Source of the DNA: Candidatus Cloacimonadales bacterium
GTDB lineage: Bacteria > Cloacimonadota > Cloacimonadia > Cloacimonadales > DAONDQ01
Direction of reading: 5' to 3'
Assembly (NCBI GenBank): GCA_963662275.1
Contig: OY759316.1
Location: 2,595,820-2,659,819 of the forward strand
Length of the DNA stretch: 64,000 nucleotides
Shown: piece after piece, positions 10,435 to 63,447 of the stretch
How the letters are laid out: the number at the start of each line of letters is the position of its first letter
Position numbering within the stretch: position 1 is the stretch's first letter
The notes under the pieces: model-generated
The model's input: the letters and a program-made list of their open reading frames with translations, nothing else
Databases searched by the model: none
Told to the model about the DNA's origin: nothing
Made by a program: the position numbers and the translations under genes

Positions 10435-12315
10435 ATGGCAGATACTTTAATTGATTCAGTATTATTGGATTTTTTTCTAACATCATCAGATCCCATTATT
10501 CCAATGGATAATGTCCATTTGATAAACGAATTCCTGTCAGCAAGCGATAATGAAGAAAAAACGGAATTAGCACAACGTTTAATGATTCAAACCATACGTA
10601 ACCTCGGTTTTGAAACACGCTGTATTGAAAGAATCCTACAGGGATATATCACTTCACTTTTAAAAGTAGATTACGGGTTCCGCTGGATAACAAAAGACTA
10701 TCGTTCTCATTTTCTGCATTCAGTCTATAATTATCTTACAGGTTTGTATTTAATGCGACATGATTTTCTCGGGAATATTCTTTTCTCTAAAATTGATTTT
10801 GAAGCTCTCGACAATATTTATACAAGTCCATCTTCTGAGTTACTACATTCATATCCTCGATGTGATTATGAAAAATTCCACAAGCGTTGGGCGATTGCAG
10901 CATTTTTCCATGATATTTCATATTTATCCCAAATTAGCTACAATGCAATGAATAAGGAAGCTAAGCACAATTTTCAAACGGATAATCAAGTGTTTTCTGT
11001 AAGTTTACCACATTTTGAAGATAATGTCCATATTGATGAGACATCGCAAATTAAACATCACTTAAGTGCATTAGTGAACTTAATTCCTCCATATTTGTTA
11101 CAACATAATGCCCTCGATATTATTAGCAGTCGTATAGCAGGCAGGCTCGGGACATTCGAAAATGCAGATATCAGGAGATCTTTAAAAAGAATAATTAAAG
11201 AGAATTTTAAAGGAGAATATGGATCACACGATATTTTAAGCGGTCTGTTTGCAATTAAGAAATATTACTATGAATTAAATTCATATTTTAATAGTACAGA
11301 AAATCCGATAACTAGTACAGAAAAAATACAAATCATTCAAGAAATGAAGGATTTTACAGATGCAATCAGCAATGCAGCTCTTCATCATTATGATAAATAT
11401 ACAGTCGGAATTTTCGAACCAACCAAAAAAGAAAAGATTTCCTGGAAAACATTACCATTATTGTATTTACTGATTCTTGTAGATGAATTACAGATCTGGA
11501 ATAGAGAATTAGTATGCGAATTCAAACCAATTGTTTATTATGATCTACAAATAAATGATACTGCATTAAGTGATTGGTTTAAGGATAATTGGACAAATAT
11601 GCTCCTGCGTTTTGTTCAATCATATCAAAATATTGACACTACAAAGTCAATGACCTTGGAAATACCTTTTACGAAAAATATGCTTAAGCAAATAGATTCA
11701 TTGAGAAGATTAGGTACACATGATCAATGCAAGATTACTAACCTAATTGAAAATTCTAATTATTCTTATAAAATTTATAATGGGAAACTATCAATATCTT
11801 TTGTAGTTTGTCCAGTATTAGCACAATTAGAGAATGTGATTAATTTTGAATTATCGAATTATGAAGTTTTACGAATTAAGAGTGTTCTCGAATCCAGTTG
11901 GAAAGAATTTAGTGCAAATCATCAGACATATTCACTTTTCATGGAATATCTGATGCTTTTTGAAGATTTGCTTGAGGAGAATAATACCAATAAGGCTTAT
12001 TCTATTAATAAAAACAATCTAATCAATAAATATCTCGTTAAATCTGACAAATTATATACACAATTAATTTCCTCAGATCAACTGTGGATACCTATCGAAT
12101 GCATAACTTTCAATCATATGAGCAGCTTTGATTCTTCCCATTTAGAGCAATTAGAATTAATGTATGATGGTAAAACTACACAAAATATACAATCAATCAT
12201 GGATCATTGTCTCAATGATTTTAAAAAACATATATCAATTAAAGGAATAAATAACCAGGCTCTTATTCATATCGTAGGTAAGATAAGAAACATTATTCAA
12301 AATTTTATAGCATAA
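10435..12315 (+). CDS. HD-domain (phosphohydrolase-like) protein, 626 aa, with a large uncharacterised C-terminal region
   Basis: Motif set RSHFLHSVYNYLTGLY (H...H), WAIAAFFHDISY (HD), GSHDILSGLF, LLILVDELQIW (D), in the order expected for HD/dGTPase-like domains. 15 bp upstream of the next gene. Confidence 0.55.
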   Translation: MADTLIDSVLLDFFLTSSDPIIPMDNVHLINEFLSASDNEEKTELAQRLMIQTIRNLGFETRCIERILQGYITSLLKVDYGFRWITKDYRSHFLHSVYNYLTGLYLMRHDFLGNILFSKIDFEALDNIYTSPSSELLHSYPRCDYEKFHKRWAIAAFFHDISYLSQISYNAMNKEAKHNFQTDNQVFSVSLPHFEDNVHIDETSQIKHHLSALVNLIPPYLLQHNALDIISSRIAGRLGTFENADIRRSLKRIIKENFKGEYGSHDILSGLFAIKKYYYELNSYFNSTENPITSTEKIQIIQEMKDFTDAISNAALHHYDKYTVGIFEPTKKEKISWKTLPLLYLLILVDELQIWNRELVCEFKPIVYYDLQINDTALSDWFKDNWTNMLLRFVQSYQNIDTTKSMTLEIPFTKNMLKQIDSLRRLGTHDQCKITNLIENSNYSYKIYNGKLSISFVVCPVLAQLENVINFELSNYEVLRIKSVLESSWKEFSANHQTYSLFMEYLMLFEDLLEENNTNKAYSINKNNLINKYLVKSDKLYTQLISSDQLWIPIECITFNHMSSFDSSHLEQLELMYDGKTTQNIQSIMDHCLNDFKKHISIKGINNQALIHIVGKIRNIIQNFIA

Positions 12316-12330
12316 TTATAGGAGGATAGC

Positions 12331-15300
12331 ATGGGAACTACGAAAATCTTGAAATATAATCAGGAAAGTATAAATTTTCTGAGAAGCTTGGAAGAGCATG
12401 TAAACAAAGCATATACTACTGACAGAAACTCTACAGCGAAGGAAAATACAGGAAAAATCAAGGAACTTCAAAGAAGACATGTTGGTTGGACTATGATTTC
12501 TTTTGAAGACGATTTTGTTACTAAACTTACTGAAATTCGATTAAATCAGGCAGAAACTAATAATGAAGAGGAAAAAATAATTAATGAAATTGATCAATAT
12601 CTATTGATGCTCTCGCTGTTAGATAATATCTTTTATGGCTATCCTTCTGAAAGATCAATGGAAGATTGTAATGGCAAGCCAATTAATAATCACCTAAATA
12701 ATTGGGTAAGAACATTTTATCATCTTACGCTCATAAATAACAAGGCAGGAGATGATGTAGATAAAAAAAAGGCACACGCATATGAAATTCAAATTTTAAT
12801 CAAGGATTTTATATCTATACCAAAGGATTTTGCCAGTTCCTATTTTGGGTACGATACCGGGATATCAGGTTTAAACCAACTCTTGATGGGTGGTTTTCTA
12901 CTCCCTGAGGACAGTACTGCAATGATAACAGTAGATGGTGAGTCTGGTGTTGGTAAAACAACTTTTGTGGTAAATTTAGTCTGTGCTATTCTGAAAAATT
13001 GTGGAGATACTGTTTTTAAACACAATAGAGATACAATAATACACAAACATGCTGAAAGACTTCCCATATTCATCGATTACTTCATATTAGAACAGTCTTA
13101 TAATAATATTAAACGATGCATAACCAACTTTAACTTACTACCCATTCTGAAAGATACCCATGACGTGGTAACAGCAAATCCAATTGATCCAAAGGATACT
13201 GTTTATTATGCTGAAGAACTTGATGGTCTTCTTAATATTTGCCAGAAAAACTCAAGAAAACTTGTTATGTCAATTCACCCTGTCCCTATGTGTTCTGCCG
13301 CAGATTTACTTCAACAGGTTCAAAAATGTGAAGAACCTTTTCAAGCAAAAAGCGTACTTGAAGATAGACACATCATTGTAATCGATTCAATCAATGCAGT
13401 TTTGGATATGGATATTGAGCAATCTAAATGGCGACAGGTATTACAGGCATTACGCTCTATACTTGGTGGAAAGAAATCTAAATGCCCAAATGAAGGAAAA
13501 AATAAAAAAGAAAACAATACAATATTGATCCTAACTCAAGAAAAAGACCCTTCCAAAAAGGATACAATGGTTGAGTATTTCTGCGATGTCGTCATGGGGT
13601 TTGAAAAGAAAAATATCAACGGTGAATACCTTCGATATATTGAATTGATCGAAAGCCGTTTTCAGGATATGTGTTTCGGAAGACATCCCTTCCATTTTTC
13701 AACTAAAGGGCAAGCTTCCTTTGGGATCTACCCTTCAGCCTCTGCTTTAATGGAATTAATTCCCAACCAATTAAAACAGATTCAGCCAGATAAAAAAACA
13801 CTTGAGTTTGGAATAAAAATCGATGGAATCCTGAAATTCTTTGTGAATACCCATTTGAAGAATAGCGGCATGAAACCATATTTTCTTAAGAATTCAGTCA
13901 GTAATCTCAATGGCGAAAAAGGATGTAATAAATCTGCATTTTCAAAGTTCTTTACACTAAGTTCATATCGGGATGAAAGATGGATATCCATGTCTGAAAG
14001 AGCATTTGAAAATGATCTTTACGAAACAGAAGTTACAGATAAGGAGTGCTATCATGAAATGAATTATTCTGAAAAAGAAGCTGACAAAATATGGAATGAA
14101 ATAAAAGAAATGAAACCATATCCAAAATCTTATAACCCTGCAAATCCTTCGGAAACTGAAAAGCATTGTAATCCGATAGATAAAGCAATCGGGATGATTG
14201 TAAAATTTGGGGAAAACTATGAAGAAAATGAACATGATGTGGTTATTGATGCACCTTGGGGAAAAGTAATCATACCAGCAAATGCATTAAAAGTAGAACC
14301 TAAATTCTGGGGGAGAGTATCAGATGTTATTTGTCATTTTGAAGTAAAAAATTTCTCTGAAGAATACTATCTTGAACAAATCATGGATGTCATTCGTGCA
14401 ATAGAATCATATCATGTATATGAAGAAATCCCTAAAACTTTTGAGAACTTGCTTAGAAGAATGAAATTATCAAGGATATTGTGGGAGAAGACTAGTTTAC
14501 GAGAACCAGAAGTAGAAGCAACTCCTAATAATGTGGAATTTAGCCCATCGTTTGCTATTTATAAAGATAAGGACTACATTAATGATAATTCTAATGTTAA
14601 AGTAGAAGATAGGAATATCTACAATTCATCTATTTTCTTCTATCATGAATCATTACCAATCAAAGTAAGAAGGTTGGTGTTGGATAATACAGAAAACCTG
14701 ATCGATATTTTCAAGCAAATCGATGCCCAGGATTTTATCACAACCATTACTCATTTCGGTTTGGCAAAGGGAATTACGATCTTAATTGTCAATCAAGTCG
14801 GTAGGGGATCTCGCAATCAGATCAATGACATTTGCAATGCCATTGCTGATAATATTTTTGAATTCCAGAGAGAATACTTTTGCGGAGGCTGGTATTCAGT
14901 ACTTCATATCAAGCGATCATCAAACAGTTGGCATAATCGAATGTACTATAACATTTATAAAAGGCACGATGAGCTTTTGGAATTGCAGGATACATTTTCC
15001 TTTATATCAAGTTTTCATAATGAACTGAAGGAGTTAATACCAATTCGTCTATTTCTCCCTGGAAAATCACAAGCTGAAATTGATATGTATGCGAATCTAT
15101 CTATTGCCTTAAATCCTTCAAATAGAGATTTTCCAGATATGAATTATAGTATTGAAAGAGATAAGAGATTACCATATAAGGATTCACACGAACAGTGGCA
15201 TACATATCTGAAAGAAATGATCATCTACAGTATGACACATCCGCAAGTGGAAGTAATTAAGGCAAGTGATCCATTTACGGACATTTCTATTATCATAGAA

Positions 15301-16629
15301 GATGAAAGCGTTAAGGATGCTTTGACGATTAGTTGTATTCCCGGTCACTTAATCAAAAGGTATAAGACAAATTTACTCAGGCTTACAGATTTTATCAATT
15401 TCAGTCCTCGGGACAACCAGCTTCCTTTCATTGATAATGCGGTTGATTTCATAGCTGATACTTGGATGGAAATTGGTAATCTCAATTCTACAACACCCAA
15501 CGGTAGATTCGGCAAGACTCATTACTACCTTAAACCTTCCTCTCTTCAATTTATCTCTAATGAGTCAAATAGAGACAATTGTCACTTTTCCTGGATAGAA
15601 CCTGACCTGCTTTTTAACCCTGTGATTGATATCAGCCATCACAGTGATTCTGATGTTCAAACAGCACATGCTCTTGCCTATCCTTTTTATATCAATCCAA
15701 GGTTTGATCTGATAATCCGCCATAAAGATGCTAAAGATGCTAAAGATGATAAGGTGAAATATCATTTCGGTTCGACAACGACAGAAGATTACTTCACATT
15801 TTTCATGGAGCTATTGTTTAAGAATAGGTCTATTAGGAATTCCGTGGCTGAATTTATAAGCAATGCAAGTGAATCAAGTATAGGATATCAAATAAATGAT
15901 ATTCCTTTTGCACAGAAAGATACAGAGGATATTACAAACCATACTTTTATTTCCAGAAACTGGTTTTCATCACACCAGCAATTTATTGATATTTTAAAAA
16001 GCAATTTATCCCCAGAAGAATTTAGTAATATGTGTTTTAAATATATCGTTCCAAAAGTATTCTCTTATTCAACCTGGTATTTAGGCGTACCACTTAATAG
16101 TCCGCGAAAAGACAGAGCCTGTGAGATTATTGTCAAAATGACTGAATATCATGATTTAGCGAATTTCCAACTGAATGGCATCGGTATTCAATTGGGAAAT
16201 TACGCTTTCAGGGATGAATGTTATAAATATTACCCTCATTTAGCATATCATGAAATTCTAACCGGAATAGGGAACATCCATTCTTTCCGTGATAATGCAA
16301 ATCATAATAGTACCGGTATTCCTTTGGCTTCCATGGATTGTTTTTATGAATTAATTACTCCCATTGGAGGTTTGCTGCAAAATGTACATCAAATGCTCAA
16401 ATCCACTATGTCATCTTGTCCTTTGAATAGCGATCTAATATCAAGGATTATTGGTCAAATTACTAATATTTTCACAGCATATACCTCGGACAATTTATGT
16501 AATGAATGCTATTTCAATTATCTGACAAATATAAATAGAGAAAAGTTATCTCGACGAGCCTGTGATTGTTGGTTAGGTGCGTTATTCGGTTTAGTACAAT
16601 CAGATTGTCCCGAGGAAAATAATTGTTAG
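12331..16629 (+). CDS. Giant (1432 aa) protein with tandem KaiC/RecA-like ATPase domains (first catalytic-looking, second degenerate) and a Cys/His-rich C-terminus
   Basis: TGISGLNQLLMGGFLLPEDSTAMITVDGESGVGKTTFVVNL (KaiC/RadA/DnaB-type Walker A context), HIIVIDSINAVL (Walker B), ILILTQE, GEYLRYIELIESRFQDMCFGRHPFHFSTKGQASFGIYP (KaiC C-terminal signature). Second copy ITILIVNQ...REYFCGGWYSVLHIKRSSNSWHNRMYYNIYKR has no Walker A. GGAGG RBS upstream. Confidence 0.6.
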   Translation: MGTTKILKYNQESINFLRSLEEHVNKAYTTDRNSTAKENTGKIKELQRRHVGWTMISFEDDFVTKLTEIRLNQAETNNEEEKIINEIDQYLLMLSLLDNIFYGYPSERSMEDCNGKPINNHLNNWVRTFYHLTLINNKAGDDVDKKKAHAYEIQILIKDFISIPKDFASSYFGYDTGISGLNQLLMGGFLLPEDSTAMITVDGESGVGKTTFVVNLVCAILKNCGDTVFKHNRDTIIHKHAERLPIFIDYFILEQSYNNIKRCITNFNLLPILKDTHDVVTANPIDPKDTVYYAEELDGLLNICQKNSRKLVMSIHPVPMCSAADLLQQVQKCEEPFQAKSVLEDRHIIVIDSINAVLDMDIEQSKWRQVLQALRSILGGKKSKCPNEGKNKKENNTILILTQEKDPSKKDTMVEYFCDVVMGFEKKNINGEYLRYIELIESRFQDMCFGRHPFHFSTKGQASFGIYPSASALMELIPNQLKQIQPDKKTLEFGIKIDGILKFFVNTHLKNSGMKPYFLKNSVSNLNGEKGCNKSAFSKFFTLSSYRDERWISMSERAFENDLYETEVTDKECYHEMNYSEKEADKIWNEIKEMKPYPKSYNPANPSETEKHCNPIDKAIGMIVKFGENYEENEHDVVIDAPWGKVIIPANALKVEPKFWGRVSDVICHFEVKNFSEEYYLEQIMDVIRAIESYHVYEEIPKTFENLLRRMKLSRILWEKTSLREPEVEATPNNVEFSPSFAIYKDKDYINDNSNVKVEDRNIYNSSIFFYHESLPIKVRRLVLDNTENLIDIFKQIDAQDFITTITHFGLAKGITILIVNQVGRGSRNQINDICNAIADNIFEFQREYFCGGWYSVLHIKRSSNSWHNRMYYNIYKRHDELLELQDTFSFISSFHNELKELIPIRLFLPGKSQAEIDMYANLSIALNPSNRDFPDMNYSIERDKRLPYKDSHEQWHTYLKEMIIYSMTHPQVEVIKASDPFTDISIIIEDESVKDALTISCIPGHLIKRYKTNLLRLTDFINFSPRDNQLPFIDNAVDFIADTWMEIGNLNSTTPNGRFGKTHYYLKPSSLQFISNESNRDNCHFSWIEPDLLFNPVIDISHHSDSDVQTAHALAYPFYINPRFDLIIRHKDAKDAKDDKVKYHFGSTTTEDYFTFFMELLFKNRSIRNSVAEFISNASESSIGYQINDIPFAQKDTEDITNHTFISRNWFSSHQQFIDILKSNLSPEEFSNMCFKYIVPKVFSYSTWYLGVPLNSPRKDRACEIIVKMTEYHDLANFQLNGIGIQLGNYAFRDECYKYYPHLAYHEILTGIGNIHSFRDNANHNSTGIPLASMDCFYELITPIGGLLQNVHQMLKSTMSSCPLNSDLISRIIGQITNIFTAYTSDNLCNECYFNYLTNINREKLSRRACDCWLGALFGLVQSDCPEENNC

Positions 16630-53269: not shown

Positions 53270-53504
53270 CCCTTTTTAATGCCATTTAGATTCGACTAAA
53301 ATGTGTCTTTTTCTTAATTTTAATTTCTTCTTAAAAATAATCATGTCAAGGATTAATTCTGAAGACAGTTAGTTACCGACTGTTGAACGAAGCTGCAAGC
53401 AGCAGTACCGTTCGCAGTAAACTCGTGTTTCATGCATTTAAACTATTGATATACTGAACCCTCACTAAAAGCATACTTACCCCCAAAATTAACTGGAGGT
53501 AAGT

Positions 53505-54377
53505 ATGGAATCATACGAAGTTCGCTTTTTAGAGTGCCTTGATCTTCGAGGCGTGTCCCGAGAGACAAAATACAATTACATCAGACAAGTCACTTCTTTA
53601 GCATCATATTATGGTCAAGACCCCGGCACACTATCTATTGAACAGGTAAGAACATATTTTGTCTACCTGCATAACGTCAAGAATTATAGTCCTCAGAGTT
53701 TAAAATCAGCCTATTATGGCATCAGATTTTTTTTCATCCATGTTGTTGGTTTCAGGCAAGAGGATTTTACCTTTTTTAAGGCAAAGATTGAGCACAAACT
53801 TCCTGTGATTCTGACCACAGACGAAGTTAGAATGCTTATCTCCCGCATTCATACTTATGATTATCGACTCTTACTGACTCTTACCTATCAATGCGGATTA
53901 AGGATTTCGGAAGCAGTCAAGATTAAAATAGCCGATATCAACCGGGAATTGATGACCATCACGGTAAGGCAATCCAAAGGCAACAAAGACAGGTCAATAC
54001 CTCTGCCTGAAAAATTGTATCAGGAACTCCGGGAATATTGGAAAACCCATCAGAACAGACAGCTTTTATTCCCGAGCAGAAGCACCAGACAGGCTGATAT
54101 TAACAGAATGACAACCTCGAACCAGATTTCTGTCCAAACTCTTCGGTCAGCTCTGAAGTCAGCCTTAAAGGAGACACGCATCCCTAAGCATGTAACCTGT
54201 CATACACTCAGACATTCTTATGCCACACATTTATTGGAAGCAGGTGTCAGTATCATCATCATCAAAGACTTGCTCGGGCACGAAAGTCTTAGAGCGACCA
54301 TGGTATACGTGCATTTGACTAACGTTTCCCGAGAGCAGTCATGTAAAATCATCAATGAACTGATGAATAAGATGTAA
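53505..54377 (+). CDS. Tyrosine site-specific recombinase (XerD/integron-integrase-like)
   Basis: C-terminal catalytic region HTLRHSYATHLLEAGVSIIIIKDLLGHESLRATMVYVHL (R...HxxR...Y); SAM-like N-terminus. Confidence 0.85.
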   Translation: MESYEVRFLECLDLRGVSRETKYNYIRQVTSLASYYGQDPGTLSIEQVRTYFVYLHNVKNYSPQSLKSAYYGIRFFFIHVVGFRQEDFTFFKAKIEHKLPVILTTDEVRMLISRIHTYDYRLLLTLTYQCGLRISEAVKIKIADINRELMTITVRQSKGNKDRSIPLPEKLYQELREYWKTHQNRQLLFPSRSTRQADINRMTTSNQISVQTLRSALKSALKETRIPKHVTCHTLRHSYATHLLEAGVSIIIIKDLLGHESLRATMVYVHLTNVSREQSCKIINELMNKM

Positions 54378-55520
54378 ATGGATTTTAGCAGGATTCTCAA
54401 AAACAACCTGTCCGAGTATCTGGAAAAATATGGAAACCAGTCACCGGAAAGCCATTTAAGAGCGATCAGAGATATTCTCCTTTGCCGGACACCTGAACTG
54501 GGCGGAGAAGTCTATTTATGCCAGGAATGTGCGGAACTGCATTATTCCTATCATTCCTGCAAAAACCGTCACTGCCCGAAGTGTGGCCGTAATGATTCAG
54601 CGAAATGGCTGGAAAAGCAGCTTGCCAAACTGCTGCCGGTTAAGTACTTCATGGTAACTTTCACCATACCCCGGGAACTGCACAAAACATGCCTGTCAAA
54701 TCAGAAACTGCTTTATGATCTTCAGTTCAAAGCATCATCTGAAGCCTTAAAGACATTGCTTTCAGATCCCAAATATGCCGGTGGCGTTTCAGGCTTTACC
54801 GGGGTACTTCATACCTGGACAAGGCAGCTTGAATATCATCCTCATATTCATTATATAGTCCCCGGCGGAGCTTGGAATAAAGAACGAAAGGAATGGCAAA
54901 AAGCAGGCAATAAGTTCCTGATTCCGGTCAAAGCTCTTTCGGTGATTTACCGGGCAAAATTCCGTGATTTGCTTCGACTGGAAAATCAGCATCTGTTTGG
55001 TCGGATATCCCCGCTAGTCTGGCAGCAAAAAGAGTTTGTCACAGACTCCCGACCCGTCGGAAAAGGTCGGGAGGCTCTGACTTATTTGGCCAATTATGTG
55101 TATCGGACCGCCATCACCAACAATCGCATCCTTTGGGAAAAGGACGGGCTGGTAACCTTTAAATACAAGCCGGCAGGTTCAGCTAAATTCGCCTTTAAAA
55201 GCGTCGACTCCGTGGAGTTTATCAATAAGTTCCTGATGCATGTTCTGCCGCAGGGATTTCAGAAAATCAGATACTACGGATTTCTCAGTCCGGCGGCAAA
55301 ATCTGTCTGGGAGATGGTCAACAGCTTTTTCCCAGCAAAGTCCGATTCTAATGACAAGAATCAGACAGCTAAAACTTTTGTAATTCCCAAATTTGAAAAA
55401 GACCTCTGCCCTAATTGCAAATCAAAGATGACACAGCATGCTTCAATTACCGGAAAACCAAGATCACCGCCTTGGTCGCTGTTGTTTTTGGCAAATTGCT
55501 TTGATGGCGGTAAACTGTAA
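54378..55520 (+). CDS. IS91-family transposase (N-terminal zinc-binding domain, HUH motif, Y2 catalytic tyrosines)
   Basis: CQECAELHYSYHSCKNRHCPKCG zinc binding; HPHIHYIVPGG HUH; YLANYVYR YxxxY. Confidence 0.8.
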   Translation: MDFSRILKNNLSEYLEKYGNQSPESHLRAIRDILLCRTPELGGEVYLCQECAELHYSYHSCKNRHCPKCGRNDSAKWLEKQLAKLLPVKYFMVTFTIPRELHKTCLSNQKLLYDLQFKASSEALKTLLSDPKYAGGVSGFTGVLHTWTRQLEYHPHIHYIVPGGAWNKERKEWQKAGNKFLIPVKALSVIYRAKFRDLLRLENQHLFGRISPLVWQQKEFVTDSRPVGKGREALTYLANYVYRTAITNNRILWEKDGLVTFKYKPAGSAKFAFKSVDSVEFINKFLMHVLPQGFQKIRYYGFLSPAAKSVWEMVNSFFPAKSDSNDKNQTAKTFVIPKFEKDLCPNCKSKMTQHASITGKPRSPPWSLLFLANCFDGGKL

Positions 55521-56592
55521 GTTAATTTTACCGACGGGATTGTCTTGCCTAAATTATAGAAACAACCGAAATATTACAGGCAATTTGCTAAAATACTTGA
55601 AAACAATATCAGCCCATACACAAAAAGTCTGATCTCAAAGTGATTTGATAACTTCTGAAAAGAAAATCATCTCTTCCATTGGTAAAAGACTCTGCTAAAA
55701 TTGTAAAAATCCAATTCAACCCAAGAAATCTTCAAAAAGCAATTTCCAAATACATATTCAAAATCACCCTGCTACTTGAGCTTGTTCAACAGCATATCCA
55801 ATCATGTCTATGATGGGAAATGCTTATTATGTTAGATCCTGAAGTTTGTAACTTTAGGAGGCTGATGAGTCATTGGGTTTCAAACCCAACAATATAACAG
55901 CTTACAAAGCTATGGTACAAAATAAAATGACAAAAAATACCTATTGATCTCAAATTTGAATATAACGGTGTGAATCTGAATTGTGAAATGGGATTCCATC
56001 TTCAATTTTCCATCTCATATTATGAAAGTTCTTAATTGACAACCGAATTGGTTTAAGCCCTCATAATAGCAGAAAAAACTTGAAAATAATTACCAATTAA
56101 ACATCAACCTAAGAAAAACAAAGAAAGTCTAGATAATGCTTAGATGATCCCTAGATGAAGCCTAGATGAAGTCCAGATAATTTTATTAGAGCTAATTGTG
56201 TGCCGGAAGGGTCGAATTTCCATTCTGGATGCGGAATGAGATGATGTATTTTTAGAAGATGTTGGAAAGGTGTTAATGGTTAATTTGGGTTATGAAAATC
56301 TTCCATCTTCCATTTTTCATCATACCTTTGATAAGTATTCCATTCTGAATGATCTTATACGATTTGAGGAGGGTGAATTTATCCTCTATGTCGTTAAGTA
56401 GCAATAATCGATAATTGGAAAGAATATTTCAAAAAATTACTGCAAATTCTTCTTTTTCCTCTTTTCTGCTTCTAGATTTAGCTCGAAATGTAAAAGAATA
56501 AAAAAATGAACTTGACATCAAACACGAAGTTGTTAATTCATCTTCTTTATGAGAATAAATCACGTGAAAGGCATACAATATAGGAGATAGTC

Positions 56593-57903
56593 ATGTTAGT
56601 AAGATTTTCTGTACAGAATTTTCTCTCATTTGGAGATAAAGCTGAATTGGCGATGTTTGCATCAAGAGTGAAAGCTCATCCTGAACAAGTTTGTAATTTG
56701 AATATCAAGCCTGTTTCAAAGTTGCTGAAATTAGCTTTGATTTTTGGACCGAATGCCTCCGGGAAATCGAACTTGGTTAAAGCGATGGATTTTGCTAGAA
56801 GATGCATTGTTGGAAAACCTGGTTTCTCCAATATAGATACAACCTATTTTAAACTACAAGACCCCATTGAATCCACTGCTAGTAACTTTGACTTTGAAAT
56901 TCTGGTTGATAAGACACTCTATAGATATGGGTTCATTTATGATAAGGATACTTATCCGTCAGAATGGTTATATAAAATTACTAAAAGTGGATATAGCCCA
57001 TTATATGTTAGAAATGCTAATAAAAATGAACGTAACATCGAATGGGATGACAAACTCTTTAAAACGAAAAAAGACAGGGAATTCTATAATTTTGTGAACA
57101 AAGGAGTTCCACACACTCAGCTTCTGCTATCGGAATTAGGAAAGAAGGAACTGGAATTATTTCTACCTCTATATCAATGGTTTACGAAATTGATCATCAT
57201 GTACCCCAAAACAGAATTTAAGAATTATCCCATGATTTTTCGCAAACCTGAATTACAGAATCTCTATAAAGATATGTTTAGTAACTGCGATACTGGAATA
57301 GAAGGAATAGACTTTGAAAAAACTGAATTCAAAGAAATTGAATTGCAGCTTCCCGACCAGTTACTCAAGGATATGTTACAGGATATCCCTAAAGTGGATC
57401 ATACTTTAGTATCTTTAAATCTGCCTAAGGGAAGGTATCTTTTAGAATATGACCATATGAAACCGACCCTATATAAGCTTCTCTTTAAGCATGTTATCAA
57501 ATCTACTGGAAGAGAAGTGAAATTCGATTTCCCTGAAGAATCAGATGGAACATTGCGCTTATTTGATCTGATTCCTTTATTGGGAGACACAAAAAATGAT
57601 AGAGTTATTGTCATTGATGAGTTAGATCGTAGTTTACATCCTCTATTAACAAAAAAACTGATTACGGAATGTTTGAAGATGGGGCTGAATAATCAATCTC
57701 AACTAATTGCGACTTCTCATGACTCCAATTTACTGGATACAGATATCATCAGAAGAGATGCAGTTTGGTTTGTCAGAAAGACGGCAGATATGTCTTCAGA
57801 AATATACTCCTTAGAAGAATTTAAACCCAGAAATGATAAAGAACTTCGGAATGCGTATTTGGAGGGCTTATATGGTGCAACTCCCATTTTCAGAAATTGT
57901 TGA
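56593..57903 (+). CDS. AAA_21/ABC-like ATPase of an AbiL/OLD-like two-gene defense module
   Basis: Walker A FGPNASGKSN, Walker B VIVIDELDRSLHP, LIATSHDSNLL; AGGAGA RBS. Confidence 0.8.
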   Translation: MLVRFSVQNFLSFGDKAELAMFASRVKAHPEQVCNLNIKPVSKLLKLALIFGPNASGKSNLVKAMDFARRCIVGKPGFSNIDTTYFKLQDPIESTASNFDFEILVDKTLYRYGFIYDKDTYPSEWLYKITKSGYSPLYVRNANKNERNIEWDDKLFKTKKDREFYNFVNKGVPHTQLLLSELGKKELELFLPLYQWFTKLIIMYPKTEFKNYPMIFRKPELQNLYKDMFSNCDTGIEGIDFEKTEFKEIELQLPDQLLKDMLQDIPKVDHTLVSLNLPKGRYLLEYDHMKPTLYKLLFKHVIKSTGREVKFDFPEESDGTLRLFDLIPLLGDTKNDRVIVIDELDRSLHPLLTKKLITECLKMGLNNQSQLIATSHDSNLLDTDIIRRDAVWFVRKTADMSSEIYSLEEFKPRNDKELRNAYLEGLYGATPIFRNC

Positions 57904-58534
57904 TGAATTAGATTTTAAAACGCAATTTCAAAGAAAATCCAAGTTCAGGGAACCCGTCCTTTTCCTTATCGCATGCGAAGGAATCAAAGATGAGCCAACA
58001 TATATCAATGAGTTTGTGAAGTTCTATCACATTGATCAAGCCAGTGTTAAAATCGCTGAAAGAAAGCCAGGAGATAGAAGTTCGGATCCTTTGAGCATCA
58101 TTGAGATTTTGAGCGATAATTTAAAGGATATCAAATCGATCAATATCAAAAGATCAATACATCCCTGGATATTAATTGATAGAGATGATCGATTAAAAGA
58201 GACTCTTGAATCAGCTAAGAGATGCTGTGATGAACTTGGTTATAATATTGCATTCAGTTGCCCGTGCATAGAGCTTTGGTTTTTACTCCACTATAAAGAT
58301 ATCAATAAGTTGGATTCAAATCTGAGAACTAAATTATTGAATTCCCAAGCATTAAAGAAATACTTAATTAAGAACCATTTGGATTTGCAGACTAACTTAA
58401 GCTCGATGTTCCTTAATACTAATGATGCAATTCAAAGAGCAAAAGAAATAGATTATATCACAGTCGATTTCCCAGCAACACATTGTACAAAAGTTTACCG
58501 ACTTATTGAGAAACTGTTGGAGTTGATCGATTGA
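57872..58534 (+). CDS. RloB-like (TOPRIM-like, AbiLii-type) protein partner of the AAA ATPase
   Basis: N-terminal REPVLFLIACEGIKDEPTYINEF matches the RloB hallmark (ILIVCEGEKTEPNYF). Start placed at ATG 57872 with a GGAGGG RBS, overlapping the ATPase by 32 nt. Confidence 0.7.
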   Translation: MVQLPFSEIVDELDFKTQFQRKSKFREPVLFLIACEGIKDEPTYINEFVKFYHIDQASVKIAERKPGDRSSDPLSIIEILSDNLKDIKSINIKRSIHPWILIDRDDRLKETLESAKRCCDELGYNIAFSCPCIELWFLLHYKDINKLDSNLRTKLLNSQALKKYLIKNHLDLQTNLSSMFLNTNDAIQRAKEIDYITVDFPATHCTKVYRLIEKLLELID

Positions 58535-58659
58535 TAAATAAAGCTAAGTTTGGGAGGTGCTTCACGAAAATCATCGAAAATTGTTGCAACGAATTATGTT
58601 GCATAGAGATAAGAAATAAAAAAGTATGAAAAGAAAACATAAGAATAAATGGAGTTTAC

Positions 58660-60759
58660 ATGACAAATGACTATTTGAAAATAATATCTGATGCTCCCTT
58701 AAAAAGTTTGAATGAGATTAGAAATGACAATCGGATGCTAGATTATAAATTATACGTCGAGAATATCTTTGAGCACATTAGAACTTATCAAGATAAAAGT
58801 AGTATCACCATAGGTATTGAAGGTACATGGGGATCGGGGAAAAGTACTATTCAAAATTTTTTAATAGAGAGAATCAAAACTTATATTACTGAAGAAGGTA
58901 ATAAAGATGCATACAAAATTATTGAGTTTAATCCATGGTATTTTACAGATTGCTCAAATTTAATCAGTCAATTTTTCCAACATATGTCTAACACGCTCCA
59001 AAAAGAGAAGAAATTACTTGGTAAGGTTAGCAAAGGGCTAGAAGACTTATCCAGAGTGTTGAATCCAGCATCAACTATTCTTATGGCAACTCTACCTCAT
59101 ATAGGACTAATTGTTAAAGGTGCTGCAAAATACACACAACAAATGGCAGAGCAATTAAAACCCAAACAAAATGATATTTTTGAAATAAAAAATAAGTTAG
59201 AAGCACTTCTTTCAGATAAAATGCTAAAAACAAAAATAATTGTATTCATCGATGACTTGGACAGGATGCCTCAAAAAGATATAAGGGCTATTCTTCAAAT
59301 GATAAAATCTGTAGGTAACTTATCAAATATTATTTACATCATTTCGTATGATAGACAAATCGTCTCTTCAGCAGTTAAAGAAGAAAATGTAGATAGAAAT
59401 GAATATTTGGAAAAGATAATACAAGCTGTTGTTCGGGTTCCTGTCCCATATTATGAAGATATTTATAATTCAATTCATGATCATTTTCCTTCACATGATG
59501 CATATGATGAACATATGGATTGCCGGTTAAAAGGAGTAATTGATTATCTTGCAAGAAGAGGGATAACATATAGGCAGATTAAACAAATAATGAACAGGTT
59601 TTCATATCGAAGAAGATTTGATTTTAATTGCCTAAGTCATTATGATCTTTTTTTATTATCAATTCTTGAGGCATTGTATCCTAAAGTTTATGCGTTAATT
59701 TTACAAATAAAACCAATTAATTTTCATATCTCAAACACAGATGAATTTAATAGTTTCAGCAAACGCAAGCAAATTTTCAAGGATTCAGTTAATGAATTAC
59801 CAGAAATGAAAAATGGAATTTATTCCGTTGACAGTAACCAGAGAGCTCCAATAGACAACTACACACTGGTATCTTTACTTATTAAATCGTTACTCAATAT
59901 AGATATCTATTCAAAAGAAGTTAATCCATATCAGGATAAGTTTAATTTTCAAACTATTGAAGAAAAAGCTCACAAATTTAGAATGTTAGATCATAATTAC
60001 TTTGAATATTATTTTTCATTTAGTGATTTTCAAGATTGTACTTTTTCTACATATAAAGAAGTCCTTAAGGGTATTCGGAGCAATGATTTTGGAGCTTTAG
60101 AACCAGTAAATTCAAAATTTCTAATTGCTTTTTTGTTTCTATGTATATCCACTTTTGCAATCGATGATTTTGATGCCTATATTCAAATAATAGACTATAT
60201 GACAAATCTCAATTACATAGATAATGAAAATAAGTATTACTATATTCTAACAAGATTCATTGAGATGTGCTTAAACAGCGAGAAAACAAAACAAATGCTT
60301 TTATCAGTTTATATAGAGAAATCCCATAAAATTGATTATATGATGATAATAGATGATTGGTTAAAAATGCATGTTAATGATGACCAAAAAATAGTAGATA
60401 AATTCCGAGTTGTTTTAAAAGAGAATATCGTATTACAAAAAGATTGTTTACAAGTAAGTCCAAGTTACAAACAAATATTATGGATTGTTTTAGAAAATTA
60501 TGAAGAAAAAGAAATGAAAAATCTTATAACTGAGCAAGTTGCAACAAACGAGGGATTGCTGGACTTATTATGGGGAGTTAGTGATAAGGAGGCAAATGGT
60601 GTCATTGCAGAAATAAGTAAAGAGAAAATAGAAAAACTTCAGGATCCACAGATTATCTTAACTAGATTGGAAAACATAATAAAAACTGATCTATTTGCCA
60701 GTCTGTCCACGGATAAAAAAACTGCAATTAATGATTTAATACACTATATTGAAACTTGA
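58660..60759 (+). CDS. KAP-family P-loop NTPase (699 aa)
   Basis: GIEGTWGSGKST Walker A and IVFIDDLDRMPQKD Walker B, in the arrangement typical of KAP NTPases. Confidence 0.75.
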   Translation: MTNDYLKIISDAPLKSLNEIRNDNRMLDYKLYVENIFEHIRTYQDKSSITIGIEGTWGSGKSTIQNFLIERIKTYITEEGNKDAYKIIEFNPWYFTDCSNLISQFFQHMSNTLQKEKKLLGKVSKGLEDLSRVLNPASTILMATLPHIGLIVKGAAKYTQQMAEQLKPKQNDIFEIKNKLEALLSDKMLKTKIIVFIDDLDRMPQKDIRAILQMIKSVGNLSNIIYIISYDRQIVSSAVKEENVDRNEYLEKIIQAVVRVPVPYYEDIYNSIHDHFPSHDAYDEHMDCRLKGVIDYLARRGITYRQIKQIMNRFSYRRRFDFNCLSHYDLFLLSILEALYPKVYALILQIKPINFHISNTDEFNSFSKRKQIFKDSVNELPEMKNGIYSVDSNQRAPIDNYTLVSLLIKSLLNIDIYSKEVNPYQDKFNFQTIEEKAHKFRMLDHNYFEYYFSFSDFQDCTFSTYKEVLKGIRSNDFGALEPVNSKFLIAFLFLCISTFAIDDFDAYIQIIDYMTNLNYIDNENKYYYILTRFIEMCLNSEKTKQMLLSVYIEKSHKIDYMMIIDDWLKMHVNDDQKIVDKFRVVLKENIVLQKDCLQVSPSYKQILWIVLENYEEKEMKNLITEQVATNEGLLDLLWGVSDKEANGVIAEISKEKIEKLQDPQIILTRLENIIKTDLFASLSTDKKTAINDLIHYIET

Positions 60760-60973
60760 GAAAGAAATACTAGTTTGTGACCTCAAGAGCTATATAGTAA
60801 ATAAAGCACAAACGAAGTAGGAAGCTAGCTAATTGAAAATTGGCAGGAAGTATATTTGCAATCCTTTTTCCTTGTATCGTGACTTTCGTGGTTACTATTC
60901 TTCTTCAGCTTCTCGTTGCAAAGAATGCAACGTATCCGCCGATAAGAAATCAGCGTTCCAAATCACTCTTCTG

Positions 60974-62221
60974 CTACAAGCTATCAGCTTCTTCCTTCCA
61001 CTCCAAAGCGATCTCCTTTCCTTTCTTTTCATTCACAAACTGGAGAAGGACTCCACCCACAAAGAAGAAAGCAATAAGTGATAATATTGACCAGCGCTGG
61101 GAACCGGTACGTAGGGCAATTTCACCATAGACAAGGGGACCGAAGATAGAGGAAAGTCTTCCGGTTACAGCATAGAAACCAAAGAATTCAGCCTGTTTAT
61201 CTATTGGTGTGAGGAGAGCCAGTAATGTCCGGCTGTTAGCCTGGCTGGAGCCGATTGCGAGTCCGGCTGTCATACCCACAAAGTAGTATTCCAGTTTCGT
61301 CGAACAAAAGAAAGCCCAAATGACCACACCTGTCCAGATGAACAGGCTCAGTGTCAGGGCACGCTTGGCACCGATTCTATCCGTCAGCAGACCAAAAAGA
61401 TAAGAACCGAGTATTGACGTAACCTGAGCCAGGATAAAATACTTGATGATTTCCTGCTGATTCATGCCAAATTGATTCACACCGTAGATCGCAGCAAAGA
61501 CGATCACAGTAATGATACCATCATTGTAAATCAAGTAGGCAACCAGGAATTTGCCTAGTTCCCTGAATTGAAAAAGATGAGTTATTGTAAATTTAATTCT
61601 CTGGTACGCAACCCTATAATAATTCGTCCTTTTAGAGGGTCGTTTAAACTCTTTCAGCCACATTAAGGTGAAGATGGCAAACGATCCAAAGAAAAGAGCG
61701 ACCGCCGGGAAAACATAGCGTATGTTCCATTTAACAATAAAAAGGGAAATGACCAGGGATAACAAACCACCTACATAGCCTAAAGCCCAGCCCATACCGG
61801 ATACTTTTCCCATATTTTCATGGGAAGATATCTCGGGTAGAAAAGCATCATAGAAGACATTGGCACTATTGAACCCGAAATTGGCAATGATAAAGAACAG
61901 CATACCGATGAATACATCTCCCCGCTGCACGAAATAAAGCAAAGCCGTGAATATCACAGCCAGGTAGCAATTCAGGAAGAGAAATCGTTTCTTTGCCCTG
62001 GAGAAATCAGCAACTGCACCAAAGATCGGGGCAGAGATTGCCACCAAAGCCATGGATATACTGATTGCTCTTCCCCATAGCGCTGTCCCCAGCTCCTGGT
62101 TATTAGGGACGACAACTTTCATAAAATAGGCACTGTAAATAACGGTTACAATGATTGTGGTAAAAGAGGAATTGGCAAAATCATACATCATCCAGCCGAC
62201 GAGATTGCGATTTAATTTCAC
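60974..62221 (-). CDS. MFS transporter (12 TM)
   Basis: Hydrophobic 12-helix profile; GTG start at 62221. Confidence 0.7.
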   Translation of the reverse strand: MKLNRNLVGWMMYDFANSSFTTIIVTVIYSAYFMKVVVPNNQELGTALWGRAISISMALVAISAPIFGAVADFSRAKKRFLFLNCYLAVIFTALLYFVQRGDVFIGMLFFIIANFGFNSANVFYDAFLPEISSHENMGKVSGMGWALGYVGGLLSLVISLFIVKWNIRYVFPAVALFFGSFAIFTLMWLKEFKRPSKRTNYYRVAYQRIKFTITHLFQFRELGKFLVAYLIYNDGIITVIVFAAIYGVNQFGMNQQEIIKYFILAQVTSILGSYLFGLLTDRIGAKRALTLSLFIWTGVVIWAFFCSTKLEYYFVGMTAGLAIGSSQANSRTLLALLTPIDKQAEFFGFYAVTGRLSSIFGPLVYGEIALRTGSQRWSILSLIAFFFVGGVLLQFVNEKKGKEIALEWKEEADSL

Positions 62222-63447
62222 AGAGAAACTCCGGGTTCAGCAGGAACGGCGTCATACTCTACACAGACAGCAAGATCGGCGTCTTGCTCTACTACTTCAG
62301 CAGGAACGGCGTCATACTCTACACAGACAGCAAGATCGGCGTCTTGCTCTACTACTTCAGCAGGAACGGCGTCCTGCTCTACAGGGACATCCATGTGAAT
62401 AACTGGCAGCTTATAATCCTTGTATAAATCCAGGTTAGGTGTAGCAATAAACACCTGGTTCTTCGTTGACATCATGGAGATGATCTGTTTTGTACGGATT
62501 GCATCCAAATCGGATAGTACATCATCAAAAATCAGGATGGGGTTTTCGTTTTCATGATTTTGGACAAGTTGAGCCTGGGTAAGTCTCATACATATCGCCA
62601 ATGAGCGTTGTTGTCCCTGAGAGCCGTAATCACGAGCCTGGTGACCATTAATAAGAAAAAGAATATCATCCAAGTGTGGACCGATCAATGATCTTTGGTA
62701 GGCAATTTCCTTCTGTCCACGCTGTTTCACATAAGCCAGGAAGTCTTCATGCACGGTGTCCGAATATTCATCAATTTCGGCAGCACAATACACGACATCG
62801 GTTGTCTCTTTGGCAGTACTGATTTTTGCGTAGTTCTCTTTGAACAAAGGTGTAAAAATAGACAGATAACGTTTTCGAGCTTCAACAACCATGACCCCGG
62901 CTTCCATGAATTTCTCATCCCATACTTTCTTGATTTGGGAATCAAAAGGAGTTTTCAGCATGGCATTCCGCTGTTGAAGGATATGCAGGTAATTCCTGAG
63001 GATTTCAATATAGGAATAATCATATTGGGCAATTGCCTGGTCAAAGAAATGTCTCCGTAACCTCGGAGAACCGGATATGACCATGATATCACCTGGTGAA
63101 AAGTAGATGATCTTCAAATAACGATACAGTTCGCTGAGTTTCTTTAAAGGTTCTTTATCCAAGAGGATGTTTTTCTTCCCCCCAGAGAAATTAACGCTGA
63201 TTTGAAGAGGATTTTCACGGTATTGGAAGAATCCAGCCAAATGAAAAGCACTTTGGTTAAAACGCATGACTTCAGCATCGGGAGCAGATCGAATCGACTT
63301 CCCGTAAGCAGAATAGGCGATAGCTTCCAGTAAATTGGTTTTGCCAATACCGTTTTTCCCTGTAATTAATGCACCTTCCGGTGCGAAAGTCATATCGCAG
63401 TCTGCAAAGTTACGAAAGTTCTGCAGATGAATGCGATTTATATACAA
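62218..63447 (-). CDS. recF: DNA replication/repair protein RecF with repeat-encoded C-terminal tail
   Basis: N-terminus MYINRIHLQNFRNFADCDMTFAPEGALITGKNGIGKTNLLEAIAYS; follows dnaN. The ORF continues ~50 aa past the usual RecF end through the REP array. Confidence 0.9.
   Translation of the reverse strand: MYINRIHLQNFRNFADCDMTFAPEGALITGKNGIGKTNLLEAIAYSAYGKSIRSAPDAEVMRFNQSAFHLAGFFQYRENPLQISVNFSGGKKNILLDKEPLKKLSELYRYLKIIYFSPGDIMVISGSPRLRRHFFDQAIAQYDYSYIEILRNYLHILQQRNAMLKTPFDSQIKKVWDEKFMEAGVMVVEARKRYLSIFTPLFKENYAKISTAKETTDVVYCAAEIDEYSDTVHEDFLAYVKQRGQKEIAYQRSLIGPHLDDILFLINGHQARDYGSQGQQRSLAICMRLTQAQLVQNHENENPILIFDDVLSDLDAIRTKQIISMMSTKNQVFIATPNLDLYKDYKLPVIHMDVPVEQDAVPAEVVEQDADLAVCVEYDAVPAEVVEQDADLAVCVEYDAVPAEPGVSL
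62225..62400. repeat. Tandem array (2.7 copies) of a 60-bp REP-like double-hairpin unit, in frame with the 3' end of recF
   Basis: cagcaggaacggcgtcatactctacacagacagcaagatcggcgtcttgctctactactt repeated exactly from 62238; contains gcaaga-tcggcg-tcttgc and gcagga-acggcg-tcctgc palindromes. Confidence 0.85.

What the first reader, a model, noticed from the sequence alone, without database searches (positions are those of the whole stretch)
56593..60759. Compact defense island: AbiL/OLD-like ATPase + RloB(TOPRIM-like) pair followed by a KAP NTPase
The 436-aa AAA_21-type ATPase overlaps by 32 nt a 220-aa protein whose N-terminus (REPVLFLIACEGIKDEPTYINEF) is the RloB hallmark. This is the AbiLi/AbiLii architecture, related to OLD-family, PARIS and Gabija ATPase-TOPRIM systems. 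Immediately downstream is a 699-aa KAP-family P-loop NTPase, a family repeatedly found in defense islands. The island is preceded by a 1-kb ORF-free stretch and an IS91-like element, and it looks AT-richer than the flanking core genes. It lies about 3 kb from dnaN-recF.
Basis: partly seen in the sequence, partly recalled or inferred. Interest (0 to 1): 0.6.

Follow-up and report, generated by a model that had tools for sequence, protein, structure and literature searches.

The report
AbiL pair plus PifA-like defence island
A 5-kb AT-rich insert in an uncultured Cloacimonadota genome carries two already-known kinds of anti-phage genes side by side (an AbiL-type ATPase plus nuclease pair and a PifA-like KAP NTPase), so it is a correct but fairly ordinary defence island.

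Summary
All three ORFs are at the stated coordinates and match the predicted families well above threshold: AAA_21 (9.9e-32), RloB (1.1e-27) and KAP_NTPase (1.3e-42). PADLOC matches AbiLi (2.2e-80), AbiLii (7.5e-23) and PifA (1.6e-56).

In 80 metagenomic loci with related ATPases, RloB lies directly downstream in 66 of 73 informative cases. A KAP gene is nearby in only 1 of 50. So the region holds two independent modules, not a three-gene system.

The KAP protein is a very divergent PifA-family member. It has no pifC, and its nearest solved fold is RADAR RdrA.

The nearest relative (a Cloacimonadota MAG, DnaN 90% identical) shares dnaN-recF-MFS. Homology stops at the MFS stop codon, and the relative has no island genes there.

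The neighbouring IS (53381-55834) is one of at least 8 near-identical copies in this genome and is probably a bystander.

Verdict: new members of known kinds. Function and mechanism are inferred by homology only.

The parts
53381..55834 (+). Multi-copy IS (2,454 bp) next to the island. It carries a tyrosine recombinase gene (53505-54377) and an IS91-family Y2 transposase gene (54378-55520). It is not part of the defence module.
   Evidence: Pfam matches: Phage_integrase 2.1e-36, Y2_Tnp 9.6e-47, Zn_Tnp_IS91 8.8e-31. Eight copies in the same genome are 99.1-100% identical and share the same ends. Short-read contigs break at 53410 and 55805.
55835..56592 (.). Non-coding AT-rich leader of the island (758 nt, GC about 0.32-0.33). 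It is presumed to hold the promoter of the AbiL pair.
   Evidence: There is no ORF of 60 aa or more, and stop codons occur in all six frames. It is not conserved upstream of homologous ATPase genes. It is a mosaic of short dispersed repeats found elsewhere in this genome.
56125..56180 (+). Five iteron-like units of 11 nt (core YAGATRA). Function unknown.
   Evidence: Tandem Repeats Finder reports period 11. The pattern gives 3 overlapping matches against 0 in 100 shuffles. A second copy lies in another intergenic region of the same genome (L021).
56593..57903 (+). AbiLi-type ABC (Rad50/SMC-like, AAA_21/AAA_15) ATPase, 436 aa. Inferred sensor and antitoxin.
   Evidence: Pfam AAA_21 9.9e-32. PADLOC AbiLi 2.2e-80 (268 bits), against 110 bits for the next model. 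Invariant motifs in 35 homologues: Walker A G52-N60, ESDGT 316-320, Walker B D342-E343, H376. There are 5,633 homologues at E <= 1e-10.
57872..58534 (+). AbiLii/RloB-family TOPRIM protein, 220 aa, overlapping the ATPase gene by 32 nt. Inferred nuclease effector.
58535..58659 (.). 125-nt spacer between the AbiL pair and the KAP gene.
   Evidence: Read from the sequence. The consensus scans found no + strand terminator-like site here.
58660..60759 (+). Divergent PifA-family KAP P-loop NTPase, 699 aa. A separate single-gene module.
60760..60973 (.). Right junction of the island. Homology to the related Cloacimonadota genome resumes at 60966, at the MFS stop codon (MFS gene 60974-62221, minus strand).
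   Evidence: blastn of L010 against the window: L010 1798-3060 matches window 62221-60966 at 75.4% identity.

Best explanation
A roughly 5.1-kb low-GC segment (55835 to about 60966) in a Cloacimonadota chromosome holds two independent anti-phage modules. Both are of known types.

Module 1 is an AbiL-type pair whose two genes appear to be translationally coupled. AbiLi is an ABC/Rad50-like ATPase. By analogy with PARIS and with validated AAA-TOPRIM toxin-antitoxin pairs, it is inferred to hold the partner inactive and to sense infection. AbiLii/RloB is a TOPRIM nuclease. It is inferred to be released or activated on infection and to cleave nucleic acid, stopping phage growth at the cost of the infected cell.

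Module 2 is a stand-alone, highly divergent PifA-family KAP NTPase. It is inferred to act as an NTP-driven switch whose helical C-terminal half recognises a phage component.

Shown here: the family memberships, the intact catalytic motifs, the tight ATPase-RloB linkage, the absence of any KAP linkage, and the absence of the island from the nearest relative.

Inferred only: the defence function, toxin-antitoxin behaviour, the nuclease substrate, the trigger, and the KAP effector step.
For: Family matches are. The window pair scores higher on the PADLOC AbiLi/AbiLii models (268 and 80 bits) than a lactococcal prophage pair annotated as abortive phage resistance proteins (254 and 64 bits). Both window proteins are 27% identical to that pair.

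The pair is a unit: the 32-nt overlap and the Shine-Dalgarno site; RloB directly downstream in 66 of 73 loci; and partner identities that track each other, with ATPases at 49-51% and their RloBs at 45-48%.

Both modules sit in defence or mobile contexts elsewhere. The AbiL pair is found beside CBASS and Ssp-like genes and on an integrase/primase element. KAP homologues are found beside type I R-M, BREX and in a prophage.

KAP is independent of the pair: 1 of 50 loci, a 125-nt spacer, and a different GC (0.290 against 0.346).

Island status: the relative with 90% identical DnaN loses homology exactly at the MFS stop and has other genes beyond it.

Mechanistic analogies come from the literature: PMC11464382 (PARIS; AbiL grouped with ABC ATPase plus TOPRIM systems), PMC10440598 (AAA antitoxin and TOPRIM_OLD toxin pairs), PMC13064643 (AbiL review) and PMC13552941 (KAP NTPases defend, and the Walker B motif is required).
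Against: There are no experimental data for this locus or for any close relative. The mechanism of AbiL itself is unsolved (PMC13064643).

The AbiL pair's GC is within about 1 sd of the window mean. No flanking direct repeats or att-like sites were found. The relative's far flank is also non-syntenic, so this is a breakpoint and not a clean insertion site.

The KAP C-terminal half is modelled at low confidence (pLDDT 50-70). No effector domain is recognisable in it.
Confidence: 0.75

Rival explanations
1. The three genes cooperate. The KAP NTPase works with the AbiL sensor ATPase, in the way the KAP NTPase tmn synergises with Gabija, Septu I and PrrC. On this view the adjacency is functional and not just island packing.
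For: In E. coli, tmn co-occurs significantly with AbiL, and it synergises with other systems that have sensory-switch ATPases (bioRxiv 10.1101/2022.08.21.504612). All three window genes are on the same strand, only 125 nt apart, with no + strand terminator-like site in the spacer. One KAP homologue lies 3 kb from a PARIS-like AAA_15+DUF4435 pair. In L068 an AbiL pair and a KAP gene share an island.
Against: A KAP gene is near an AbiL-type pair in only 1 of 50 surveyed loci, and four ORFs separate them there. The two closest AbiL pairs have no KAP. KAP homologues neighbour unrelated systems. KAP's GC differs from the pair's. The window KAP is PifA-like and lacks clear transmembrane helices, unlike tmn. 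Synergy between AbiL and tmn was never tested in the paper.
Confidence: 0.15
2. The ATPase-RloB pair is mainly a toxin-antitoxin addiction module that stabilises the acquired DNA. It may also be a restriction-linked RloAB-type accessory. On this view it is not a phage sensor.
For: AAA antitoxin and TOPRIM_OLD toxin pairs behave as toxin-antitoxin systems (PMC10440598). RloB was first described inside type I R-M loci. The pair lies in acquired DNA next to an active IS.
Against: There are no R-M genes in or beside the island. Lactococcal AbiL gives phage resistance (Deng et al. 1999, as cited in PMC13064643). Homologues cluster with other defence systems. Toxin-antitoxin behaviour and abortive infection are not mutually exclusive.
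Confidence: 0.07
3. The island was brought in by the adjacent IS91-family element through one-ended rolling-circle transposition.
For: The IS abuts the island's left edge. IS91-family elements are known to mobilise adjacent DNA (general knowledge, not tested here).
Against: The other 7 copies of the IS in this genome have the same exact ends and unrelated flanks, and none carries these genes. The island lies on the transposase 3' side. From memory, the canonical read-through model mobilises DNA at the other (terIS) end. The IS GC (0.41-0.45) differs strongly from the island's.
Confidence: 0.03

Closest known systems
AbiL (AbiLi/AbiLii) of Lactococcus lactis plasmid pND861, and its PADLOC/DefenseFinder family
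   Same: It has the same two-gene architecture: an AAA_21/AAA_15 ABC ATPase followed by an RloB-family protein. The best PADLOC matches for both proteins are AbiLi and AbiLii. The ATPase aligns end to end at 27% identity, and the RloB core at 27%, with a lactococcal prophage AbiL-type pair.
   Different: The host is an uncultured Cloacimonadota bacterium and the locus is chromosomal. Identity to the lactococcal proteins is low. I could not compare it with the original pND861 sequence. The phenotype is untested.
PARIS (AriA/AriB)
   Different: The effector here is RloB (PF13707), not DUF4435. The ATPase scores 110 bits on the AriA model against 268 bits on AbiLi. The trigger and the substrate are unknown.
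OLD-family nucleases and Gabija GajA
   Different: In OLD and GajA the ATPase and TOPRIM are fused in one polypeptide, and Gabija needs the GajB helicase. Here they are two proteins and no helicase gene is present. There is no Pfam OLD-like_TOPRIM match.
PifA of the F plasmid (T7 exclusion)
   Same: Both are KAP P-loop NTPases of similar length (699 against 741 aa). PifA is the best PADLOC match (1.6e-56). The proteins are 24% identical over residues 33-460. The C-terminal tail aligns in order with the PifA-family profile.
   Different: Only 58% of the PifA profile is matched, at 190 bits against 960 bits for genuine PifA. Residues of about 460-597 have no detectable relatives. There is no pifC repressor gene. 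The locus is chromosomal in a distant phylum.
tmn and other defence KAP NTPases (EF_KAP, QatA, RADAR RdrA)
   Different: There are no clear transmembrane helices in the NTPase insert: the hydrophobic segment around 137-158 scores about 1.3 (worked out by hand with the Kyte-Doolittle scale), below the 1.4 cut-off used in that scan. There are no Qat or RADAR partner genes. I could not obtain a tmn reference sequence.

Membership tests
AbiL (two-gene abortive infection system) | AbiLi-type ABC ATPase (AAA_21/AAA_15) with intact nucleotide-binding motifs | tested here: met
   Pfam AAA_21 9.9e-32 and PADLOC AbiLi 2.2e-80. The Walker A, signature-like ESDGT, Walker B and H-loop residues are invariant in 35 homologues.
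AbiL (two-gene abortive infection system) | RloB/AbiLii-family gene directly downstream on the same strand | tested here: met
   Pfam RloB 1.1e-27 over the full model, and PADLOC AbiLii 7.5e-23. The genes overlap by 32 nt, with a Shine-Dalgarno site. The same arrangement is seen in 66 of 73 related loci.
AbiL (two-gene abortive infection system) | Homology to lactococcal AbiL proteins | tested here: met
   Compared with the Lactococcus prophage proPhi7 ORF55/56 pair, which is itself AbiLi/AbiLii by PADLOC. The ATPase gives E 2e-26 at 27% identity over its full length. RloB gives E 1e-08 at 27% identity over the TOPRIM core.
AbiL (two-gene abortive infection system) | Abortive-infection phenotype against phage; both genes required | not testable with these tools
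   This needs cloning and phage challenge.
TOPRIM / OLD-type nuclease domain (for the RloB protein) | Conserved Glu after strand 1 and DxD after strand 3 | tested here: met
   E36, D103 and D105 are invariant in 13 sequences. In the model they sit at the ends of strands 29-35 and 95-103.
TOPRIM / OLD-type nuclease domain (for the RloB protein) | TOPRIM fold | tested here: met
TOPRIM / OLD-type nuclease domain (for the RloB protein) | Sequence-profile match to OLD-like_TOPRIM (PF20469) or a solved TOPRIM protein | tested here: not met
   RloB is the only Pfam hit at E <= 0.01. A profile search of PDB sequences found nothing meaningful.
PARIS (AriA/AriB) | DUF4435 (AriB) effector next to an AriA ATPase | tested here: not met
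   There is no DUF4435 match; the effector is RloB. The ATPase fits AbiLi far better than the AriA models (268 against 110 bits).
Gabija | Fused ATPase-TOPRIM GajA plus UvrD-like helicase GajB | tested here: not met
   The ATPase and the TOPRIM protein are separate, and there is no helicase gene in or beside the island.
KAP P-loop NTPase family | PF07693 match above the gathering score, with Walker A and B motifs | tested here: met
   146.5 bits against a cut-off of 20. GTWGSGKS at residue 55 and IIVFIDD at 193. W57, G58, G60, K61, D198, D199 and D201 are invariant in 62 sequences.
KAP P-loop NTPase family | Transmembrane helices inserted in the NTPase domain (present in many members, for example tmn) | tested here: inconclusive
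   The insert at about 137-162 is moderately hydrophobic. Its Kyte-Doolittle mean is about 1.3 (hand calculation with the scale), below the 1.4 cut-off used in that scan. It is modelled with pLDDT below 50.
PifA (F-plasmid T7 exclusion) | Full-length similarity to PifA | tested here: inconclusive
   The PADLOC PifA match covers profile positions 26-444 of 720 at 190 bits. Genuine PifA and six homologues match positions of about 5-716 at 252-960 bits. Only the tail, residues 597-693, is recovered by hhalign (probability 90%). The middle has no relatives.
PifA (F-plasmid T7 exclusion) | pifC-pifA operon context | tested here: not met
   On the IncF plasmid, pifC directly precedes pifA. The window has no such gene.
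PifA (F-plasmid T7 exclusion) | Exclusion of T7-like phage through membrane permeability lesions | not testable with these tools
   This needs an experiment.
Genomic (defence) island | Absent from the syntenic position in a related genome | tested here: met
   In the Cloacimonadota MAG AMR_MDS_3891, dnaN-recF-MFS is about 75% identical in DNA up to window 60966. After that come a 228-aa unknown ORF, pgk, a histidine kinase and a UDP-glucose dehydrogenase. Caveat: only one relative was available, and its far flank also differs.
Genomic (defence) island | Deviant base composition | tested here: inconclusive
   KAP's GC of 0.290 is 2.7 sd below the window mean. The AbiL pair is only about 1 sd below.
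Genomic (defence) island | Flanking direct repeats, a tRNA, or its own integrase | tested here: not met
   No convincing flanking repeats were found. The only tRNA is at 23839. The tyrosine recombinase belongs to the multi-copy IS.
IS91 family | Y2 HUH transposase with an N-terminal zinc-binding domain; multiple identical copies | tested here: met
   Y2_Tnp 9.6e-47 and Zn_Tnp_IS91 8.8e-31. Eight copies are 99.1-100% identical.

The most novel reading that the evidence does not exclude
The AbiL pair and the PifA-like KAP NTPase may form a cooperating unit, with the KAP NTPase co-opting the AbiLi sensor ATPase. This is the kind of synergy reported for tmn with Gabija, Septu and PrrC. If so, the locus would be a natural, physically linked example of ABC-ATPase/TOPRIM plus KAP cooperation outside the Enterobacteria. 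The near-orphan middle region of the KAP protein (about residues 460-597) would be a lineage-specific recognition surface.
Probability: 0.15. Interest if true: 0.55.

Novelty: new member of a known kind. Interest (0 to 1): 0.27.

Why it matters
It extends two known defence families, AbiL and PifA-type KAP NTPases, into Cloacimonadota, an uncultured phylum with little experimental phage biology.

It also offers a compact, intact AbiL pair that could be used to solve the AbiL mechanism, which is still unknown. The open questions are whether AbiLi sequesters a TOPRIM nuclease as PARIS does, and what that nuclease cuts.

The side-by-side KAP gene gives a natural construct for testing the reported KAP-ATPase synergy.

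None of this changes current concepts. It is a correct annotation-level finding.

Tried and rejected
- A RecF-based scan of genome contigs found no relative. DnaN then found one.
- Exact-protein look-ups of the flanking genes returned only the same genome and its short-read fragments, so no strain without the island was available.
- NCBIfam gave no family-level hits.
- PDB sequence searches found nothing for any of the three proteins.
- Foldseek of the RloB model against the PDB gave nothing significant.
- Promoter and terminator scans were no better than shuffles (34 sites against 26.8 +/- 5.4), so they say nothing about operon structure.
- The leader is not conserved upstream of homologous ATPases and holds no gene remnant.
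- A CTGATGAG string at 55870-55877 looked hammerhead-like by eye, but Rfam at E <= 1 found no ribozyme. I rejected it.
- The sub-threshold RAGATH-25 hit inside the KAP gene (29.9 bits against a gathering score of 49) is treated as chance.
- Neither the ATPase nor KAP has close relatives on viral contigs.
- The reference tmn plasmid CP083423.1 is not in the local collections, so I made no direct tmn comparison.
- I first considered that the KAP C-terminal half might be a novel effector fused to a KAP core. I dropped this once hhalign showed that the tail aligns in order with the PifA family.


Full report

Yes. The ORF listing gives 56593-57903 (436 aa), 57833-58534 (233 aa from the first ATG) and 58660-60759 (699 aa), all on the + strand. 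Pfam matches are far above the curated cut-offs:
- AAA_21: 111.6 bits against a cut-off of 27.
- RloB: 97.9 bits against 31.5, covering the full 195-position model.
- KAP_NTPase: 146.5 bits against 20.

It is also the start used in the public gene call for this contig. This gives a 32-nt overlap with the ATPase gene.

Upstream are a tyrosine recombinase gene (53505-54377) and an IS91-family Y2 transposase gene (54378-55520).

**2. Boundaries and context**

The recombinase plus transposase unit occurs at least 8 times in the same genome. The copies are 99.1-100% identical and share the same ends, which places this copy at window 53381-55834. Short-read contigs from an independent run break at 53410 and 55805, as expected at a repeat. 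So only 758 nt (55835-56592) of the "ORF-free kilobase" belong to the island.

That leader has stop codons in all six frames. It is not conserved upstream of homologous ATPase genes. It is a mosaic of short repeats found elsewhere in this genome, including a five-unit 11-nt array at 56125-56180 that recurs at another intergenic site.

A DnaN search found a related genome, a Candidatus Cloacimonadota MAG with DnaN 90% identical. Its DNA is about 75% identical to the window through dnaN, recF and the MFS gene. Homology stops at window 60966, at the MFS stop codon. Beyond that point the relative has a 228-aa ORF of unknown family in low-GC DNA, then pgk, a hybrid histidine kinase and a UDP-glucose dehydrogenase. 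It has none of the three island genes there, and none of the window's left-flank genes either. The island is therefore absent from the relative. Because both flanks differ, this is a variable breakpoint and not a clean empty site.

Composition gives partial support. KAP has GC 0.290, the lowest of 39 genes in the window (mean 0.382, sd 0.034). The ATPase and RloB genes are at 0.346 and 0.345, only about 1 sd low.

**3. The ATPase-RloB pair**

PADLOC's best models for the two proteins are AbiLi (2.2e-80, 268 bits; the next model scores 110 bits) and AbiLii (7.5e-23).

In an alignment of 35 ATPase homologues, the Walker A (G52-N60), ESDGT (316-320), Walker B (D342-E343) and H376 residues are invariant.

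RloB homologues keep E36, D103-x-D105 and an E134-L-W-x-L-L-H140 motif.

The AlphaFold2 model of RloB has pLDDT 79.4 and pTM 0.76. It places E36 and the DxD at the ends of strands 1 and 3, the classical TOPRIM positions.

The pair behaves as a unit:
- The nearest ATPase homologues (49-51% identity) have RloB partners at 45-48% identity.
- In 80 metagenomic loci with ATPase relatives at 28-37% identity, an RloB gene lies directly downstream on the same strand in 66 of the 73 loci that have enough sequence to tell.

A lactococcal prophage pair annotated as abortive phage resistance proteins is AbiLi/AbiLii by PADLOC. Both of its proteins are 27% identical to the window proteins, and the DxD and IE[LV]WxLLH motifs are shared.

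**4. The KAP protein**

The NTPase core is clear. Walker A is at residue 55 and Walker B at 193, the key residues are invariant, and the model is confident over about residues 30-350.

PADLOC's best model is PifA (1.6e-56), but the match covers only profile positions 26-444 of 720. Genuine F-plasmid PifA, identified by its position directly after pifC, is 24% identical over residues 33-460. It scores 960 bits over the whole PADLOC model. Six homologues of the window protein also match PifA nearly end to end.

The C-terminal 360 residues found only four weak relatives among 1.84 billion representatives. However, a profile comparison shows that residues 597-693 align in order with the C-terminal end of the PifA-family profile (hhalign probability 90%, E 1.6e-6). 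So this is a very divergent but full-length PifA-type protein, not a KAP core fused to a new effector.

**5. One system or two?**

KAP homologues are stand-alone genes that sit beside type I R-M, BREX, or inside a prophage. The two nearest AbiL pairs sit beside CBASS and Ssp-like genes, or on an integrase/primase element, and neither has a KAP gene.

Among 50 surveyed loci with room for a neighbouring KAP gene, only one has one (L068). That locus is a dense island: a Septu-like AAA plus HNH pair, the AbiL pair, an Mrr-type nuclease, an OLD-TOPRIM fragment, and then KAP.

Together with the 125-nt spacer and the different GC, this favours two independent modules packed into one island.

A cooperative reading cannot be excluded. 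Wu et al. report that the KAP NTPase tmn co-occurs with AbiL in E. coli and synergises with other sensor-ATPase systems. One KAP homologue also lies 3 kb from a PARIS-like pair.

**6. Likely mechanism (inferred)**

By analogy with PARIS (PMC11464382) and with validated AAA antitoxin and TOPRIM_OLD toxin pairs (PMC10440598), AbiLi probably holds AbiLii inactive and senses an infection cue. ATP-dependent release would then let the TOPRIM nuclease cut RNA or DNA and abort the infection. For AbiL itself the trigger, the substrate and the assembly are unknown (PMC13064643).

The KAP protein is probably an NTP-dependent switch. In other KAP NTPases, both the Walker B motif and the C-terminal region are needed for defence (PMC13552941).

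**7. Novelty**

Both modules are members of known families, found here in a new and poorly studied host phylum. The interpretation made from raw sequence was essentially right. Interest is modest.

Noticed in passing
window 53381-55834; loci L020-L027: The tyrosine recombinase plus IS91 transposase unit is a recently active element. The genome has at least 8 copies that are 99.1-100% identical. One copy (L025) lies between two Cas_TM1802 (cas8) fragments of 347 and 103 aa in a type I CRISPR-Cas operon, so it has probably inactivated that operon.
   Followed up: partly
window 55835-55920; L022 1744-1790 and 1984-2007; L023 4459-4543; L027 1830-1857: The first ~85 nt to the right of the IS end match short sequences that flank other copies of the same IS (76-100% identity). 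This suggests the IS inserts into, or travels with, a small dispersed repeat.
   Followed up: partly
window 62236-62383: A 60-nt tandem repeat (2.5 copies, 97% matches) lies in the 3' end of recF, just upstream of the MFS gene start. In the Cloacimonadota relative only 36 nt separate the two homology blocks here, against 166 nt in the window. The repeat therefore adds a repetitive C-terminal tail to RecF in this genome. A short-read contig also ends here.
   Followed up: partly
window 56125-56180; L021 6408-6469 (minus strand): There are five iteron-like 11-nt units (core YAGATRA), with 0 matches in 100 shuffles. A second copy of about 60 nt (82% identical) lies in an unrelated intergenic region of the same genome. 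This may be a protein-binding array or a small repeat element.
   Followed up: partly
window 10435-16629: Two large low-GC genes lie side by side: 626 aa at GC 0.302 and 1,432 aa at GC 0.340. They have no PADLOC match. The only Pfam match is a short KaiC-like P-loop hit at residues 175-219 of the larger protein. This could be another acquired locus of unknown function.
   Followed up: partly
L010 3247-3933: In the relative, the position just past the MFS gene holds a different low-GC (0.31-0.35) 228-aa ORF with no Pfam or PADLOC match. The dnaN-recF-MFS junction may therefore be a variable hotspot in this lineage.
   Followed up: partly
L014 1716-3999 and 7001-9046; L068 4320-12747: ABC-ATPase plus nuclease pairs and KAP NTPases recur in the same islands elsewhere. 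In L014 a PARIS-like AAA_15+DUF4435 pair lies 3 kb upstream of a PifA-type KAP gene in a prophage. L068 carries a Septu-like pair, an AbiL pair, an Mrr nuclease, an OLD-TOPRIM fragment and a KAP gene.
   Followed up: partly
L029 6368-6892: The best plasmid homologue of the ATPase is on a Bacillus mycoides plasmid (35.5% identity, AbiLi by PADLOC). Its 174-aa downstream partner has no AbiLii match, so some AbiLi-type ATPases may pair with a different effector. In the metagenome survey, 7 of 73 loci likewise lacked a detectable RloB.
   Followed up: no
window 59893-59938: There is a sub-threshold Rfam RAGATH-25 match (29.9 bits against a gathering score of 49, E 5.8e-4) inside the KAP coding sequence. 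It is most likely chance in AT-rich DNA.
   Followed up: no
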